DNA of 64,000 bases, taken from an uncultured Methanolobus sp. Lineage in GTDB: Archaea > Halobacteriota > Methanosarcinia > Methanosarcinales > Methanosarcinaceae. Under the pieces are notes generated by a model. It ran no database searches, was not told the origin of the DNA, and saw nothing but the letters and a program-made list of their open reading frames with translations. Position 1 is the stretch's first letter, and every line of letters starts with the position of its first letter. The stretch is taken from the NCBI GenBank assembly GCA_963675495.1, contig OY776215.1:672001-736000 (forward strand), in the 5' to 3' direction. This document shows, piece by piece, positions 1,683-33,707 of this stretch. A program made the translations under genes and the position numbers.

Positions 1683-2759
1683 ATGAGAATTATGATAGGA
1701 GTTGCCCATCCAAAGCACGTTCATTTTAGAAAAAATCTCATCAAGAATTTGCTCTTGAATGGACATGAAGTAAAAGTAGTTGCAAGAGAAAAGGACATTA
1801 CATTCCAGTTATTAAACTCTTATGGAATTAAATATGAATCTATAGGGCCCCACTATAAAAACTTCTATAAGAAAATATATGGCGTATATGAAGCAGACAG
1901 TTTAACTTATAAAATTGCTCGAAGGTTTAATCCGGACCTGATAATAGGAGGAAGCCCATATTTAGCACATGTAGGTAAACTATTGAAAATACCTCATATT
2001 GGTTTTTCAGATACTGAAAACACTCCTTTTAATAATTATATATTGCATTCCTGCTCAAAACTTGTTTGCACACCATTTTCATTTAAAAATTCATTGGGGT
2101 CAAAAAGACACATTTATTATAATGGGTTTGAGGAATTAGCATATTTACATCCTACTGACTTTAAGCCGGATGAATCGGTATTTGAGTCTCTTGACATCAA
2201 CTCTGATGAAAAATATATTGTTGTACGATTTGTGGAATGGGATGCAACTCATGACAAAGGCTCAAAAGGTTTCACTGATAAATTGAGTATCGTCAGGGAG
2301 CTGGAGAAATATGGGCGGGTTTTCATAACATCAGAAAAAGAACTCCCCCCAAGTCTTGAAAAAAATCGGATAAGTGTCCCACCTGAAAAAATCCATGATT
2401 TCATGTATTATGCAAATCTCTTCATTGGTGAAAGTTCTTCCATGGCATGTGAAAGTGCTGTCCTTGGTACTCCCTCCATCTACTTATCTACAAGCAGAAG
2501 GGGTTACATTGATGAAATGGAATCATCGTACGGCCTTGTTTATAATTATTCTGATCCGGAGACAGGCCAATCAGATGCTTTCAAAAAAGCCATAGAGATC
2601 CTGGAAGACAGTAATAGCAAACTGAAATGGCAACAAAAGCGTGAAAGAATGCTCAATGATAAGATAGATGTCACAAAATTCATTACTGAACTTGTAGATG
2701 GCTATCCAGATAGCATAAAAACCTTGAAGAACAAAGAGGGTATCATCTATAAAGGTTAA
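1683..2759 (+). CDS. DUF354 family GT-B-fold protein
   Basis: HPKHVHF N-terminus, YNGFEELAYLHP, ATHD, GESSSMACESAVLGTP. Confidence 0.8.
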   Translation: MRIMIGVAHPKHVHFRKNLIKNLLLNGHEVKVVAREKDITFQLLNSYGIKYESIGPHYKNFYKKIYGVYEADSLTYKIARRFNPDLIIGGSPYLAHVGKLLKIPHIGFSDTENTPFNNYILHSCSKLVCTPFSFKNSLGSKRHIYYNGFEELAYLHPTDFKPDESVFESLDINSDEKYIVVRFVEWDATHDKGSKGFTDKLSIVRELEKYGRVFITSEKELPPSLEKNRISVPPEKIHDFMYYANLFIGESSSMACESAVLGTPSIYLSTSRRGYIDEMESSYGLVYNYSDPETGQSDAFKKAIEILEDSNSKLKWQQKRERMLNDKIDVTKFITELVDGYPDSIKTLKNKEGIIYKG

Positions 2760-2789
2760 GGTTAAAGATCCTTACTACTGGAAGATACT

Positions 2790-3482
2790 ATGAAAATTGC
2801 TATTCATCAACCTAATTATCTGCCTTATCTTGGTTTTTTTGACAAAATGAACAAAGCAGATGTATTTGTAATATATGATGATGCCCAATTCAATAAAGAG
2901 GATTTCCAGCATCGAAATAAGATACGCATTTTCAATGGTTGGAAATGGTTGACTGTACCTGTAGAGAAGAAAAGGATACCTATCAGGGAAATCAAGATAC
3001 GTAATAGTCTCCTCACAAAAGGTCAGATGTGGAATGATGTGCATCTGTCAATGCTGAAAGAAAACTACATAAACTCCCGGGAATTTCAGAATTACGAATC
3101 TGGAATCGAAGCTATATACATGTCTGATTACGAATATCTATTTGATCTAAATATGTCTTTGATCGACTTTTTAATGAAATCATTTGGTCTAAAAACCAAA
3201 ATTGTTTTTTCCAGTGAATTTGATTTCAAGACAAAGTCAACTGAAAGATTAGTAGACATTGTTGATTGTTTGGATGGTGATGTTTACATATCAGGCCCAT
3301 GCGGCAAGAATTACTTAGACACTTCTTTGTTTGAAACTAAGGATATATCTGTAGAATATCAAGACTTTAGACATCCGGTCTATGAGCAATGTTATGAAAG
3401 CTTTGAACCAAATATGGCTTCCATTGACGCTCTATTTAGTATTGGGAGAAAGACATTTAATATGAGGGATTGGAATGGTTAA
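2790..3482 (+). CDS. WbqC-family protein
   Basis: AIHQPNYLPYLGFFDKM..AD.FV.YDD.QF...QHRN..., WLTVPV, YISGPCG.NYL, SIDALF. Confidence 0.88.
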   Translation: MKIAIHQPNYLPYLGFFDKMNKADVFVIYDDAQFNKEDFQHRNKIRIFNGWKWLTVPVEKKRIPIREIKIRNSLLTKGQMWNDVHLSMLKENYINSREFQNYESGIEAIYMSDYEYLFDLNMSLIDFLMKSFGLKTKIVFSSEFDFKTKSTERLVDIVDCLDGDVYISGPCGKNYLDTSLFETKDISVEYQDFRHPVYEQCYESFEPNMASIDALFSIGRKTFNMRDWNG

Positions 3483-31470: not shown

Positions 31471-31518
31471 TGTTATTTATGTCAATTTGGGTTTAACTAA
31501 TACCCATATATTTTGCCC

Positions 31519-31743
31519 TTAGAATGAATTGATCAATCTCTCATTGAGTTTGTGCCTTTCATCTTTAATATCTGCGATCTCGCGCTCTATTTGACCCTTT
31601 TGAACCATCAATTCTGCTTTTTTATCTTCATTGATAGTTTTGTAAAGATCCCTGATGATAATATCCAACTCATCTTCAAGATCCATGAGTTCATAGCCTA
31701 GTCTGGTTGCCTTTTTATCGAGCCCAATAATGTCTTCATTCAT
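31519..31743 (-). CDS. Small coiled-coil hypothetical protein
   Basis: GGGGT SD then ATG; heptad-like charged helix; 17 bp downstream of the 418-aa gene. Confidence 0.7.
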   Translation of the reverse strand: MNEDIIGLDKKATRLGYELMDLEDELDIIIRDLYKTINEDKKAELMVQKGQIEREIADIKDERHKLNERLINSF

Positions 31744-31760
31744 CTTACCCCACGCCCAAC

Positions 31761-33017
31761 TTACAATTTAAATGATAGCAATTTAATAAAATCGATTCTT
31801 GGTGAATATATAGCACCTGCACTTCTCAATGAAGCAAGAGCATTTGATAGCTCAAACGGTGTAAGCAGAGACATATTTTCAACATCCACCATTGAAATGA
31901 TTACATCAATACCAAAAGTATCCTCTAGTTGCAAATACAATTGAGCCGCTTCTTTGGGTAAACGAAATATTTCACCAGGAGACAAATTGGATTTCCGGAA
32001 CTTAGATGCATGTGCGAACATGTCCATCCATATATCAAATCCGTCACGTACATTGGAAACAGAAACATTATTGCTAAAATTCATTCGGGCGATGCTTGAA
32101 CCCAGTTTAGGAGCAGCAGCACCAAGGTCTTGCTTGTAAACGAAATTACCTGAGTTTGTGAATGTTTCTGTCATGTCATATATTCGATCAGTCAGACATT
32201 TTTCTGCTTTTTGTGAGATTTCCGGTTGAAACATTAAAGCATCCAGAAGATGAGCCCTTACAAAGGGTATCTCAAAAGACACATCAGCAGAATAAGCAGA
32301 TTTGGGACGCATCTCAGCATCAAAAACAATAGGCACATGTACAAACGTCTCTTTCGGCATGAGTATTGAGAGATTTACTTCCCTGCTGCCTAATGGATTC
32401 ACATTCTTTTCAAGCTCAGAAGAACTGTAAAAATAAGGAGACTTTGTACTTTTAAATTCTCTGGGAATTAATTTCTGTAGAGAAATAAAGGAATCCCAGC
32501 CGCTTTTCTTTGCAATTATACCAGAATCAATTCCACCTTTTTCATTGATACCAATTGCATTTGATGAAACCGAACACATTGCAAGACACTTGGAAATGTT
32601 ATCCAGATTTTCATCTGCACTATGAAATGGATGCTTAAAAAAATTAACATACTCTTCCTGATCCATTACTTTTCTGTGAAGGAGTTTTTTAGGGTCGACT
32701 TTTTTCCACGCTTTCACATGCCTGATATCAATGTTAACGAGATTATCAAATGTGCCCCTGACAACTCTTTCTGTTTCAAAGGATGTGACTTTGATCAGCT
32801 CATTGTTGTTTGGTGTCGGGACAGATTCATCGGAGATTATATAGAACTCTCTTTTTGGTGTAGGGAGAAAAGGGGAAGGATCCAGATAAAAAAGATGCCT
32901 GCTTCGGCCATCAAATCGGACAAAGCCCATCTCATCACTATCAAATATGAGTTTGTGCTCCACACCAGAGAGCTCATAACCAAACTCGCGGTTTTTCAGG
33001 GTTTGTCTTCTGACCAT
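31761..33017 (-). CDS. Degenerate MCM-like protein (AAA+ lid and winged helix kept, Walker motifs absent)
   Basis: QPEISQKAEKCL, KLGSSIARMNFSNNVSVSNV and LRSAGAIYSPR..IKLL resemble the MCM C-terminal region; no GxxGxGKS or DE motif. Confidence 0.6.
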   Translation of the reverse strand: MVRRQTLKNREFGYELSGVEHKLIFDSDEMGFVRFDGRSRHLFYLDPSPFLPTPKREFYIISDESVPTPNNNELIKVTSFETERVVRGTFDNLVNIDIRHVKAWKKVDPKKLLHRKVMDQEEYVNFFKHPFHSADENLDNISKCLAMCSVSSNAIGINEKGGIDSGIIAKKSGWDSFISLQKLIPREFKSTKSPYFYSSSELEKNVNPLGSREVNLSILMPKETFVHVPIVFDAEMRPKSAYSADVSFEIPFVRAHLLDALMFQPEISQKAEKCLTDRIYDMTETFTNSGNFVYKQDLGAAAPKLGSSIARMNFSNNVSVSNVRDGFDIWMDMFAHASKFRKSNLSPGEIFRLPKEAAQLYLQLEDTFGIDVIISMVDVENMSLLTPFELSNALASLRSAGAIYSPRIDFIKLLSFKL

Positions 33018-33185
33018 ACCATGACCTTAATGTTATTGGTTGATAAGTTTTATTCAACTTCAGGTCAAAAGACGTGTAATCCAACTTGTAAACTGCAATC
33101 TTATGATGCACCTAACCTATAAGTATCCGGAAATCAGTATTTTGGGTATTCACATCACAATTAATGCAGCAGAGGTAGCTAGAAC

Positions 33186-33707
33186 ATGAAAGGAACAATC
33201 GATACCATATTATCAAGACGCAGCATCCGTAACTTCACATCAGAAGAAATCAAAGAGGAAGATATCAAAACAATACTTGAAGCAGGCAGATGGGCACCAT
33301 CCGGACTCAATAACCAGCCATGGAAATTTATTGTGATCAAAAACAAAGGAATCATGAAGGAACTGGCAACCTGCACGCACTACACCAATATTATTTTGAA
33401 TGCACCGTTGTTGATAGCTGTTTATCTGGACCTTGATACGATGTATAATAAGACTAAGGACATCCAGGCCATAGGAGCATCCATACAGAATATGCTTCTG
33501 GCATGCTGTGATCTTGAACTTGGAGCTGTCTGGCTGGGAGAGATATTAAACAACTCAAATAAAGTAAACTTGATTCTGAATTGTCCTGATGATGTAGAGC
33601 TTATGGCAGTACTTGCAATCGGCAAACCTGCAGATAGTGGGAAAAAGGGTATCAGAAAAGATCTGAGTGAGATAGCATACACTGAAAAGTATGGGGAGTC
33701 ATTTTAA
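33186..33707 (+). CDS. Nitroreductase-family protein
   Basis: RRSIRNF, AGRWAPSGLNNQPWKF, QNMLLA...LGAVW. Confidence 0.93.
   Translation: MKGTIDTILSRRSIRNFTSEEIKEEDIKTILEAGRWAPSGLNNQPWKFIVIKNKGIMKELATCTHYTNIILNAPLLIAVYLDLDTMYNKTKDIQAIGASIQNMLLACCDLELGAVWLGEILNNSNKVNLILNCPDDVELMAVLAIGKPADSGKKGIRKDLSEIAYTEKYGESF

What the first reader, a model, noticed from the sequence alone, without database searches (positions are those of the whole stretch)
31519..33017. ATPase-dead MCM-like paralog paired with a small coiled-coil protein
The 418-aa ORF follows MCM order: a beta-rich OB-like N-terminus; ISKCLAMCSVSS..GGIDSGII where MCM has LLQLFGG..RGDIHILL; then VRAHLLDALMFQPEISQKAEKCL (cf. LRKYIAYAR..P.LS.EA); KLGSSIARMNFSNNVSVSNV (cf. 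RLAEA.AR.RLS..V...D); and the winged-helix end ALASLRSAGAIYSPRIDFIKLL (cf. KLK..GEIYEPR.G.YK). Walker A/B and the Arg finger are missing and the AAA core is shortened. No integrase or mobile genes are nearby. Inference: a non-catalytic MCM partner or regulator, conceptually like eukaryotic MCM-BP/MCMDC2, with the 74-aa protein as cofactor. I do not know of a characterised archaeal example.
Basis: partly seen in the sequence, partly recalled or inferred. Interest (0 to 1): 0.7.

Follow-up and report, generated by a model that had tools for sequence, protein, structure and literature searches.

The report
ATPase-less MCM relic gene cassette
A two-gene insert in a methanogen genome encodes a well-conserved protein that descends from the MCM replicative helicase but has lost the motifs needed to use ATP, followed by a tiny acidic helical protein; it is an accessory, patchily distributed gene of unknown role, not a core replication factor.

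Summary
The 418-aa ORF (31761-33017, minus) and the 74-aa ORF (31519-31743, minus) exist. Both are under purifying selection (dN/dS 0.08-0.18 and 0.11-0.29).

The large protein is a real but degenerate MCM homologue.
- A profile-profile comparison aligns residues 264-414 with the lid and winged helix of the genome's own MCM (98%, E 2.4e-13).
- All 13 profile hits in the PDB are MCMs.
- The AlphaFold model finds only MCMs at the top of two structure searches (Foldseek E 2e-7; Z 11.9-12.8).
- Walker A, Walker B, the arginine finger, sensor 2, the zinc finger and subdomain A are absent.

New findings:
- The two genes form a discrete 1.7-kb indel. It is missing from the same ilvC-nitroreductase site in 5 of 5 congeners examined that lack the gene.
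- The family is patchy: 15 of 31 other genomes of the genus have it. It also occurs on a plasmid.
- In single loci it sits next to a Cdc6/Orc1-like gene, a mini-MCM gene, integrases or defence-type genes.

Function is inferred only. An inactive archaeal MCM homologue (M. kandleri, 3F8T) is already known, so I class this as a new variant of a known kind.

The parts
31761..33017 (-). Gene for the 418-aa ATPase-less MCM-derived protein (stop codon 31761-31763).
   Evidence: ORF. The family holds 29 clusters at 90% identity and 146 representatives at 50% identity. dN/dS is 0.075-0.178. MCM homology.
32697..32945 (-). Residues 25-107: OB-fold domain, equivalent to MCM N-terminal subdomain C. The zinc-finger subdomain B is not inserted in it. 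The invariant residues lie in and just before it (R10, G13, E20, G31, V33, R34, L45, P49).
   Evidence: In the whole model, residues 25-110 align to the MCM OB region. With the domain folded alone, the top 3 of 48,161 chains are archaeal MCM N-domains (Z 6.3, 6.0, 6.0; 76-81 residues aligned). These are tied within 1 Z with generic SSB/RPA OB folds. Foldseek on the domain alone gives no match at E<=1e-3. Invariant columns.
32232..32678 (-). Residues 114-262: relic of the AAA+ alpha/beta core. It has no P-loop, Walker B or arginine finger, and only two confidently predicted strands.
   Evidence: VIA gives Z 12.8, 194 residues aligned at 4.0 A for model residues 114-342 against MCM chain residues 320-655. 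DSSP and pLDDT show strands at 165-168 and 228-231 and pLDDT below 50 at 153-166 and 187-224. Motif counts. Forced hhalign.
31992..32231 (-). Residues 263-342: MCM-type AAA lid. The conserved A310-R311 pair aligns with the invariant A581-R582 of MCM. The position of the MCM sensor-2 arginine is aspartate (D297).
   Evidence: hhalign at 98% probability. Pfam MCM_lid E 0.043, which is below the gathering score. PDB profile hits.
31764..31991 (-). Residues 343-418: C-terminal winged-helix domain of MCM type.
   Evidence: hhalign to host MCM 614-696. The profile hits the archaeal MCM winged helix 2ma3_A and the C-terminus of 8x7t_D. VIA winged-helix matches reach Z 8-9 over residues 346-418.
31519..31743 (-). 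Gene for the 74-aa acidic (pI 4.7), probably helical protein, 17 nt downstream of the large gene.
   Evidence: ORF. Orthologues at 69-76% identity occupy the same position in close kin. dN/dS is 0.11-0.29. An HMM of A3 finds the 79-aa ORF in the same position of a sister lineage at E 3.6e-4 among 2,959 small ORFs. pI.
31480..33190 (.). Approximate extent of the two-gene indel relative to congeners that lack the genes. It lies between the ilvC terminator hairpin and the nitroreductase gene start.
   Evidence: In G027, G037, G041, G103 and G240 the flanking blocks are 57-125 bp apart. Junction sequences. No terminal repeats and no tRNA.

Best explanation
SHOWN.
- The 418-aa protein is a diverged descendant of the archaeal MCM helicase. 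It keeps the OB domain, a collapsed AAA+ core, the MCM lid and the C-terminal winged helix, in MCM order.
- It lacks subdomain A, the zinc finger, Walker A, Walker B, the arginine finger and the sensor-2 arginine. It therefore cannot be an ATP-driven helicase.
- It is a functional gene, not a decaying pseudogene. It is under strong purifying selection and keeps a constant length of about 410-450 aa across several families of methanogens.
- It belongs to the accessory genome. Here it sits with the 74-aa gene in a 1.7-kb two-gene indel between ilvC and a nitroreductase gene.

INFERRED.
- The protein acts without catalysis, through the parts that remain conserved: the basic OB domain with its invariant N-terminal motifs, and the winged helix.
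- I think it most likely binds DNA and/or replication-initiation proteins (Orc1/Cdc6, MCM). It would then act as an adaptor, decoy or cap that modulates helicase loading, rather than unwinding DNA.
- Its origin is most likely a replication module of an integrated or extrachromosomal element. This fits the 'shell' MCM copies known in archaea, the plasmid copy, and the loci with an adjacent Cdc6/Orc1-like or mini-MCM gene.
- In the lineages closest to the window's genome, the small acidic protein is a co-inherited partner. Its role is unknown; a modulator or mimic binding the basic OB surface is my guess.
For: Homology:
- hhalign of A1 against the MCM alignment gives 98% probability, E 2.4e-13, for residues 264-414 against host MCM 534-696.
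- hmmsearch of A1 against the PDB returns 13 hits at E<=10, all MCM, best 0.0018.
- The same profile against 1.84 billion representatives picks up 5 long proteins (584-672 aa) at their C-termini. All 5 are bona fide MCMs by Pfam.
- Foldseek gives 220 matches at E<=1e-3; the listed top rows are all MCM, best 2.1e-7.
- In an unbiased VIA search of 48,161 chains the top 10 are all MCM-family chains, Z 9.1-11.9. They include the inactive M. kandleri homologue (248 residues aligned).

Losses: and the DSSP output.

Real gene: dN/dS 0.075-0.178 in the 32 pairs with a defined dS of 36 pairs; 0.11-0.29 for the small gene in 10 pairs.

Accessory nature:
- 15 of 31 other genomes of the genus have a match; one of these has only fragments.
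- Other genera of the family: 14 of 40, 3 of 12, 2 of 10 and 1 of 9.
- 25 of 401 genomes in the phylum sample match at E<=1e-10. The matches fall in 7 families (15 of 52 in the window's own, 1-2 genomes in each of six others); none was found in several large ones, for example 0 of 64 and 0 of 54.
- Some genomes hold two copies (G101, G015) and some hold fragments or stop-containing copies.
- The empty site was found in 5 of 5 congeners examined.
- There is a copy on plasmid NC_019972.1.

Replication or mobile-element links:
- In L044 a 401-aa Cdc6/Orc1-like gene (Cdc6_C 1.1e-13, Cdc6_lid 2.9e-11) overlaps the start of the homologue, which is followed by a 71-aa acidic ORF.
- In L055 a 268-aa MCM_OB plus zinc-ribbon protein (E 3.6e-24) lies 35 nt upstream, with an integrase 2 kb away.
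- That 268-aa protein matches the host MCM N-domain and winged helix but has no AAA+.

Known concept: divergent extra MCM copies arising from integrative elements (passages of PMC3914693).
Against: - Sequence-level homology is significant only for residues 264-414.
- The similarity of the AAA+ core rests on an AlphaFold model of moderate confidence (mean pLDDT 71.5; below 50 at 153-166 and 187-224).
- The OB domain alone scores only Z 6.3 and is tied with generic OB folds. Foldseek finds nothing at E<=1e-3 for it.
- Pfam MCM_lid is below its cut-off (14.8 against 27.4 bits).
- No result here shows binding to DNA, MCM or Orc1/Cdc6.
- Replication-gene neighbours are rare: one locus with a Cdc6-like gene and one with a mini-MCM among the 21 loci whose neighbours were read.
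- Among 138 neighbour proteins no family recurs in more than 5, and most are housekeeping. Phage_integrase occurs in 3 of 138.
- The family was not found in viral contigs or phage records.
- The cassette has no terminal repeats, no integrase and no tRNA nearby, so how it moves is unexplained.
- Whether the indel is an insertion or a deletion is unresolved.
- The small partner is absent from most lineages.
Confidence: 0.55

Rival explanations
1. Anti-element (defence or incompatibility) decoy. The dead MCM co-assembles with, caps or competes with the MCM or initiator of invading plasmids or viruses, many of which bring their own MCM or Cdc6. This blocks their replication. The fast-evolving small acidic protein tunes or restrains it, as in a two-gene defence or toxin-antitoxin-like pair.
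For: - The distribution is patchy and multi-copy, with pseudogenised copies.
- The two genes form a compact indel.
- The small partner diverges much faster than the large protein. BLAST does not connect the small ORFs of different lineages, and the A3 profile links only one of them (E 3.6e-4).
- Some loci lie beside Hypoth_Ymh, a TIR-domain protein and an HNH endonuclease. Three of the 138 neighbour proteins match a DNA-methylase family.
Against: - There is no match in PADLOC.
- Most neighbourhoods are housekeeping genes.
- No nuclease or other effector is consistently linked.
- Purifying selection is strong (omega about 0.1), without the diversifying signature often seen in arms-race genes.
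- The mechanism is pure inference.
Confidence: 0.2
2. Host replication or repair accessory in the manner of eukaryotic MCM-BP or MCMDC2. The protein would be a non-catalytic paralogue that chaperones, unloads or redirects the cell's own MCM hexamer.
For: - It has the same overall logic as those proteins: MCM-like folds without ATPase motifs.
- The MCM-type lid and winged helix are retained.
- The ESM Atlas lists an MCM_bind cluster among its leads. The score of 0.81 is below the 0.9 line, so it is a lead only.
- The gene lies 0.9 kb from a type IA topoisomerase gene.
Against: - The gene is missing from half of the congeners and most of the family, all of which have MCM. It therefore cannot be a general MCM factor.
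- Pfam reports no MCM_bind match.
- The topoisomerase adjacency is also present in the empty-site genomes, so it is not linked to the cassette.
Confidence: 0.15
3. Functionless remnant of an element-borne MCM gene that is slowly decaying.
For: - All catalytic motifs are lost and the core has collapsed.
- Some relatives are fragmented or carry stops.
Against: - dN/dS is 0.08-0.18 at dS up to more than 2.
- There are 112 full-length representatives of 380-500 aa.
- 34 columns are invariant across 27 sequences that go down to 30% identity.
- The family is conserved in a second lineage of methanogens, the named Methanoregula, Methanolinea and Methanoregulaceae records.
Confidence: 0.05
4. Not MCM-derived at all: a different AAA+-lid or winged-helix protein with a chance resemblance.
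For: - There is no Pfam or NCBIfam assignment above threshold.
- Single-sequence phmmer against the PDB finds nothing.
Against: Three independent approaches converge on MCM only: the profile against the PDB, the profile-profile comparison, and two structure searches, one of which does not depend on Foldseek. The domain order is co-linear over the whole length.
Confidence: 0.05

Closest known systems
Archaeal MCM replicative helicase (the genome's own copy: 696-aa ORF in L001, G000:C1 about 917.8-919.9 kb)
   Same: - Same domain order: OB, AAA+, lid, winged helix.
- The lid and winged helix are alignable at profile level (98%).
- Best structural matches.
- Retained landmarks include the K/R-G-G/D strand before the P-loop position and the A-R pair of the lid.
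   Different: - 418 aa against 696 aa.
- No helical subdomain A, no Cys4 zinc finger, no Walker A or B, no arginine finger, and no sensor-2 arginine (D297 instead).
- The AAA+ plus lid segment is about 100 residues shorter. A low-confidence alignment places the gap over the helix-2 insert, Walker B and pre-sensor-1 hairpin region.
- It is an accessory gene, not universal.
Methanopyrus kandleri MCM2, PDB 3F8T. It is called a catalytically inactive MCM homologue in PMC3972481 (passage). The structure is named in a figure legend of PMC4619765. The original paper, Bae et al. 2009, was not read.
   Same: - An archaeal MCM paralogue without catalytic activity.
- One of the best structural matches to the model (Z 11.9, 248 residues aligned, model 27-339 against chain 107-492).
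   Different: - No specific sequence relationship: 3F8T is not among the 13 PDB chains found by the family profile.
- According to the PMC4619765 legend, the M. kandleri protein still has subdomains A, B and C and a five-stranded AAA+ domain. Here A and B are missing and the core has collapsed.
- Different lineage, and an accessory cassette context here.
'Shell' MCM copies of archaea derived from integrative elements and plasmids (passages of PMC3914693; Krupovic et al. 2010 is cited there and was not read)
   Same: - A divergent extra MCM-family gene with patchy distribution and non-conserved context.
- Occasional neighbours are an integrase, IS elements and a Cdc6-like gene.
- A plasmid copy exists.
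   Different: [quoted passage not shown] This family has none.
- It is not recognised by the Pfam MCM model.
- It is not inside a recognisable integrated element in this window.
Eukaryotic non-catalytic MCM relatives: MCM-BP, MCMDC2, and Drosophila MEI-217/MEI-218 of the mei-MCM complex. These are recalled from memory. Only search listings of 10.1101/467134 and PMC11949460 were seen.
   Same: - The concept is the same: MCM-derived folds that have lost ATPase motifs and act through protein contacts.
- The L055 locus has an MCM N-domain-only gene next to the dead MCM-like gene. This recalls the split MEI-217/MEI-218 arrangement.
   Different: - No detectable sequence relationship: there is no Pfam MCM_bind hit, and the Atlas score of 0.81 is only a lead.
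- Independent origin in archaea.
- No functional data here.

Membership tests
MCM family (replicative helicase, Pfam PF00493/PF17207/PF17855) | Sequence match to the curated family models above threshold | tested here: not met
   Pfam reports only MCM_lid, at E 0.043 and 14.8 bits against a cut-off of 27.4. There is no PF00493 or PF17207 hit. NCBIfam reports nothing.
MCM family (replicative helicase, Pfam PF00493/PF17207/PF17855) | Homology of the AAA lid and C-terminal winged helix | tested here: met
   hhalign 98%, E 2.4e-13, residues 264-414 against host MCM 534-696. All 13 PDB profile hits are MCM. 5 true MCMs are hit at their C-termini.
MCM family (replicative helicase, Pfam PF00493/PF17207/PF17855) | Walker A P-loop (GDPGVAKS in the host MCM) | tested here: not met
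   None of 112 full-length members has an MCM-type P-loop. 2 of 112 have a general [AG]x4GK[ST] string, and only one of these (P0017) is at the equivalent position. The window protein reads GIIAKKSGW at that position.
MCM family (replicative helicase, Pfam PF00493/PF17207/PF17855) | Walker B (VDEMDK in the host MCM) and arginine finger (SRFD) | tested here: not met
   Walker-B-type strings occur in 2 of 112 members and SRFD in 1 of 112, all at non-equivalent positions. The forced alignment puts a gap over Walker B and shows no arginine at the finger position (low confidence).
MCM family (replicative helicase, Pfam PF00493/PF17207/PF17855) | Sensor-2 arginine in the lid | tested here: not met
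   In the confident hhalign block the host's T-A-R-Q aligns with Y-K-Q-D, so R568 aligns with D297. The family consensus at that position is YKQDLG.
MCM family (replicative helicase, Pfam PF00493/PF17207/PF17855) | AAA+ alpha/beta core fold with the helix-2 insert and pre-sensor-1 hairpin | tested here: inconclusive
   The region superposes on MCM AAA+ domains (Z 12.8, 194 residues aligned at 4.0 A). It is about 100 residues shorter, only 2 strands are confidently predicted, and residues 187-224 have pLDDT below 50.
MCM family (replicative helicase, Pfam PF00493/PF17207/PF17855) | N-terminal OB fold (subdomain C) | tested here: met
   Residues 25-107 form an OB fold. MCM N-domains are the top 3 of 48,161 chains (Z 6.0-6.3), but they are tied within 1 Z with SSB/RPA folds. 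The domain is co-linear with the MCM OB in whole-model alignments.
MCM family (replicative helicase, Pfam PF00493/PF17207/PF17855) | Zinc-binding subdomain B (Cys4) and helical subdomain A | tested here: not met
   None of 112 members has a Cys4 pattern, against 4 of 6 MCM controls. The window protein has 3 cysteines in all. Structural and profile alignments start at MCM residues about 94-124.
MCM-BP (Pfam PF09739 MCM_bind) | Match to the MCM_bind model | tested here: not met
   It is not listed in the Pfam scan at E<=10. The Atlas cluster with MCM_bind scores 0.81, a lead only.
Known anti-phage defence systems (PADLOC-DB 2.0) | Match of either protein to a defence-system model | tested here: not met
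   No family for either protein at E<=1.
Integrated mobile element or provirus | Integrase, terminal repeats, tRNA target or viral genes at the locus | tested here: not met
   In the window the flanks are ilvC, a nitroreductase gene and a topoisomerase gene. There are no boundary repeats and no tRNA in 20000-45000. The family has no relatives in viral contigs or phage records. Some homologous loci elsewhere do have integrases or IS elements.

The most novel reading that the evidence does not exclude
The family is a new kind of replication-targeting accessory factor of methanogens. It would be a 'pseudo-helicase' that uses its surviving MCM interfaces (OB, relic AAA+ face, winged helix) to poison or cap MCM rings, or to sequester Orc1/Cdc6. 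In this way it would decide which replicons, whether chromosome, plasmid or virus, may load a helicase. The rapidly diverging small acidic protein would be its lineage-specific switch.
Probability: 0.12. Interest if true: 0.8.

Novelty: new variant of a known kind. Interest (0 to 1): 0.5.

Why it matters
MCM loading is the commitment step of archaeal and eukaryotic replication. Natural non-catalytic MCM derivatives such as MCM-BP and the mei-MCM proteins are how eukaryotes modulate it.

This family is conserved and selectively maintained, yet annotated only as 'hypothetical protein', and it has lost its ATPase motifs. It occurs in genetically tractable groups of methanogens. It would therefore give a simple prokaryotic system in which to ask what an MCM scaffold can do without its motor.

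It also shows how element-derived replication genes are exapted. Practically, it identifies a protein family (at least 146 representatives at 50% identity) that current Pfam and NCBIfam models miss.

Tried and rejected
Complex prediction: the 418-aa protein (alignment A1) with the 74-aa protein (A3) scored 0.03 and 0.00, under the mark of 0.32. The verdict was 'no answer'. I draw nothing from it.

Expression: no RNA holder was listed for window:31450-33190. The four listed holders, all from one study, are kept as contigs and their kind is not recorded.

Searches that found nothing:
- Single-sequence phmmer against the PDB: 0 hits.
- NCBIfam: nothing for the large protein.
- PADLOC: nothing. 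PHROGs: nothing for the large protein and only weak hits (E>=0.006) for the small one.
- Viral contigs: 45 pattern matches, none confirmed.
- Phage records: no match.
- Foldseek with the N-domain alone: no match at E<=1e-3. The weak rows are mostly MCM N-domains and other OB folds.
- Terminal direct or inverted repeats at the cassette ends: only short matches of 10-24 nt, none flanking both ends.
- tRNA genes in window 20000-45000: none.

Insertion or deletion: a tree of ilvC plus nitroreductase from 8 occupied and 5 empty sites needs at least 2 changes but is mostly unresolved (6 of 9 inner branches are open). The direction is undecided. ZRKC3 (L067) was dropped before the tree because its ilvC and nitroreductase identities to the window equal those of G039. 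G019 and G157 were dropped because ilvC was not in their loci.

Neighbour census: 138 proteins of at least 110 aa within 5 genes of the homologue in 20 loci. ORFs were called by a crude longest-ORF rule and shorter ORFs were left out. No family occurs in more than 5 members. I rejected the idea of a conserved operon partner.

Homology of the small ORFs of L044 and L046 to the window's 74-aa protein is not shown (E 3.9-4.4).

The 373-aa gene upstream of the plasmid-borne homologue has no clear family (DUF5806, E 0.0055).

Literature: four searches returned no paper describing this family. PMC3307487 (passages) concerns inactivated RecJ, not MCM. The tables of extra MCM copies in PMC3914693 could list members of this family, and I could not see them.

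Two hits on 2.5-2.7-kb contigs binned as bacteria I take to be mis-binned archaeal fragments. This is an inference and was not tested.
Full report
WHAT IS THERE. The window holds a 418-aa ORF at 31761-33017 and a 74-aa ORF at 31519-31743. Both are on the minus strand and they are 17 nt apart. They lie between ilvC (KARI domains, E 5e-77) on one side and a nitroreductase gene followed by a type IA topoisomerase gene on the other. The window is G000:C1:672001-736000 of a 2.87-Mb single-contig genome. The closest named homologues of the large protein come from Methanolobus (93% identity).

IS IT MCM-LIKE? Yes. Single-sequence methods see almost nothing: Pfam gives only MCM_lid at E 0.043, below its cut-off, NCBIfam gives nothing, and phmmer against the PDB gives nothing. 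Profiles and structure agree with each other.
- An alignment of 27 family members (A1) searched against all PDB sequences returns 13 chains at E<=10. Every one is an MCM, matched at the lid and/or winged helix, best 0.0018.
- The same profile read against 1.84 billion representative proteins finds 146 proteins at E<=1e-3. Five long ones (584-672 aa) are matched only at their C-termini, and Pfam shows all five to be complete MCMs.
- hhalign of A1 against an alignment of the genome's own MCM plus those five (A2) gives 98% probability, E 2.4e-13, over 151 columns. Residues 264-414 align with host MCM 534-696.
- An AlphaFold model built on A1 (mean pLDDT 71.5) gives 220 Foldseek matches at E<=1e-3 in the PDB. 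The listed top rows are all MCM chains, best 2.1e-7.
- VIA-align places residues 114-342 on the MCM AAA+ and lid (Z 12.8, 194 residues at 4.0 A). It places residues 25-110 on the MCM OB domain and 343-416 on the winged helix.
- A search that does not lean on Foldseek (48,161 representative chains) again has MCM-family chains as its top ten, Z 9.1-11.9. These are followed by winged-helix domains for residues 346-418.
- The N-domain folded alone (A4) is an OB fold. Three archaeal MCM N-domains rank first (Z 6.0-6.3), but they are tied with SSB/RPA-type OB folds. Foldseek finds nothing significant for this domain.

WHAT IS LOST. The protein starts where MCM subdomain C starts, so there is no helical subdomain A and no Cys4 zinc finger. 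None of 112 full-length members has a Cys4 pattern, and the window protein has 3 cysteines in total.
- At the P-loop position the host's GDPGVAKS is replaced by a glycine-poor stretch. None of the 112 has an MCM-type Walker A. One member keeps a vestigial GKS at the equivalent position.
- Walker-B-type and SRFD strings appear in 2 and 1 of the 112, at unrelated positions.
- In the confident part of the hhalign alignment the sensor-2 arginine of MCM faces D297. The invariant A-R of the lid is kept as A310-R311.
- Between the helix after the P-loop position (174-181) and the first lid helix (239-261), the model has one confident strand (228-231) and a stretch with pLDDT below 50 (187-224).
- The AAA+ plus lid segment is about 100 residues shorter than in MCM. 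A forced, low-confidence global alignment puts the main gap over the helix-2 insert, Walker B and pre-sensor-1 hairpin region.
- The protein therefore cannot be an ATP-driven helicase.

IS IT A LIVE GENE? Yes. Among nine orthologues dN/dS is 0.075-0.178. This covers 32 of 36 pairs; in the other 4 dS was saturated. For the small gene dN/dS is 0.11-0.29 in 10 pairs. Thirty-four columns are invariant across sequences down to 30% identity. They concentrate in the first 60 residues, a K-G-G triplet at 160-162, and the lid.

DISTRIBUTION.
- In a class-level sample of 301 genomes, full-length matches are confined to the window's own family: 15 of 31 other genomes of the genus (one with fragments only), then 14 of 40, 3 of 12, 2 of 10 and 1 of 9 in four other genera.
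- A neighbouring family holds distant 445-457-aa forms. The weak hits in about 700-aa frames (and one of 870 aa) are the genomes' true MCMs.
- In a phylum-level sample, 25 of 401 genomes match at E<=1e-10. The matches lie in seven families. None was found in several large families searched, for example 0 of 64 and 0 of 54.
- Named records place relatives in Methanolobus and in Methanoregula, Methanolinea and Methanoregulaceae (32-37% identity).
- One copy lies on plasmid pMETHO01 of Methanomethylovorans hollandica, annotated as hypothetical.
- Two genomes hold two diverged copies, and several hold fragments or copies with stops.

THE CASSETTE. Five congeners without the gene were examined (G027, G037, G041, G103, G240). 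In all five the ilvN-ilvC block and the nitroreductase-topoisomerase block are adjacent, 57-125 bp apart in the BLAST blocks. In the window they are 1.7 kb apart.
- The ilvC terminator hairpin is kept in both states.
- The two genes are therefore gained or lost together as one unit.
- The same site is occupied in six other genomes of the genus and in four named Methanolobus records. In one of them a TnpB gene sits between the two genes, and in another a DDE transposase follows the large gene.
- I found no terminal repeats, tRNA or integrase at the site. A flank tree cannot decide between insertion and deletion.

THE SMALL PROTEIN. It is acidic (pI 4.7) and conserved at 69-76% identity in close kin.
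- An ORF of 69-79 aa, acidic (pI 4.2-4.6) and starting 7-20 nt after the large gene on the same strand, is present in three more lineages, including paralogues only 37% identical.
- A profile links the window's form to one of these (E 3.6e-4 among 2,959 small ORFs) but not to the other two.
- In total, 10 of the 30 loci, plus L046, have such an ORF. The loci of genus g4 (genomes of about 3-5 Mb) have none.
- Five of seven Methanoregulaceae loci instead have a conserved 139-140-aa gene just upstream. The one copy scanned gave a weak HTH_36 match (E 5.9e-4, below the cut-off).

OTHER NEIGHBOURS. Contexts differ from lineage to lineage and are mostly housekeeping. No family recurs in more than 5 of 138 neighbour proteins. 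A few loci are informative:
- In L044 a 401-aa Cdc6/Orc1-like gene with a P-loop overlaps the start of the homologue, which is followed by a 71-aa acidic ORF.
- In L055 a 268-aa 'mini-MCM' (MCM OB, zinc ribbon and an MCM-like winged helix, with no AAA+) lies 35 nt upstream, and an integrase lies 2 kb away.
- Elsewhere the neighbours include Hypoth_Ymh, a TIR protein, an HNH endonuclease with a short integrase, and IS elements.

HOW IT MOST LIKELY WORKS. The following are shown: MCM descent, loss of the motor, purifying selection and accessory status. The rest is inferred.
- The conserved parts are a basic OB domain (pI 9.3 for residues 1-115) with invariant N-terminal motifs, and the MCM-type lid and winged helix.
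- In archaeal MCM the OB tier binds ssDNA and forms the ring. The winged helix is reported to mediate recruitment by Orc1/Cdc6. This is recalled from the literature and was not checked here.
- I therefore think the protein is a non-catalytic DNA- and/or initiator-binding adaptor or decoy that descends from an element-borne replication module. I put about 0.55 on this reading.
- Rivals: a specifically anti-element decoy or defence pair (0.2), a host MCM chaperone of the MCM-BP kind (0.15), a decaying remnant (0.05), and no relation to MCM (0.05).

COMPARISON AND NOVELTY. Inactive MCM relatives are known. The M. kandleri homologue (3F8T) is called catalytically inactive in PMC3972481 (passage). 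Divergent extra MCM copies from integrative elements are described in PMC3914693 (passages). MCM-BP, MCMDC2 and MEI-218 I cite from memory.
- This family differs by the extent of reduction: no subdomains A or B, a collapsed core, and no catalytic motif.
- It also differs by its small-cassette context and by being invisible to current family models.
- Four literature searches returned no description of it. Supplements could not be read.
- I class it as a new variant of a known kind, of moderate interest.

LIMITS. The AAA+ assignment rests on a model of moderate confidence. No interaction or expression data exist. ORF calling in the neighbour loci was crude. The genome samples are samples, so 'not found' does not mean absent.

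Noticed in passing
L010:2770-3003(+) and L011:2771-3004(+): In two related genomes (G015, G029) the small ORF downstream of the homologue has an in-frame TAG at the same codon; the G077 orthologue has Q there. The frame is otherwise intact and conserved on both sides. This could be TAG read-through or pyrrolysine decoding, if these genomes use it, or a young pseudogene.
   Followed up: partly
L055:7163-7969(+) (G063): A 268-aa 'mini-MCM'. It has an MCM OB domain with a zinc ribbon (Pfam E 3.6e-24) joined directly to an MCM-type winged helix (43% identical to the host MCM C-terminus), with the whole AAA+ module missing. It lies 35 nt upstream of the dead MCM-like gene and 2 kb from a tyrosine recombinase gene.
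   Followed up: partly
L044:7776-10459(-) (G101): Three tightly packed genes: a Cdc6/Orc1-like gene (401 aa, P-loop present), an MCM-like homologue (418 aa, 37% identical to the window's), and a 71-aa acidic ORF. It looks like a replication-initiation module in which the helicase is dead.
   Followed up: partly
L070, L072, L073, L074, L076: about 2465-2890(+), or 1662-2084 in L074: In Methanoregulaceae records the homologue is preceded, about 110 nt upstream on the same strand, by a conserved 139-140-aa gene. The one copy scanned (L072) gave only a weak Pfam HTH_36 match (E 5.9e-4, below the cut-off). This is a different small partner from the one in the window.
   Followed up: partly
L006:2873-3994(+) (G019) and L057:9265-10722(+) (G157): At the same ilvC-nitroreductase site, one genome has a TnpB/IS605 OrfB gene inserted between the large and small genes. 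Another has a DDE transposase directly after the large gene, with no small ORF seen.
   Followed up: no
L069 and L077: Two homologous fragments lie on 2.7-kb and 2.5-kb contigs of MAGs labelled as bacteria (Vulcanimicrobiota, Ignavibacteria). They are probably mis-binned archaeal contigs.
   Followed up: no
G000:C1:2820535-2820903(-) and 2214637-2214858(-) (L002, L003): The Pfam MCM P-loop model also gives two weak hits elsewhere in the genome (323-aa and 385-aa frames, E about 1e-4). The same model rings in all 14 control genomes, bacteria included, so these are probably other AAA+ ATPases.
   Followed up: no
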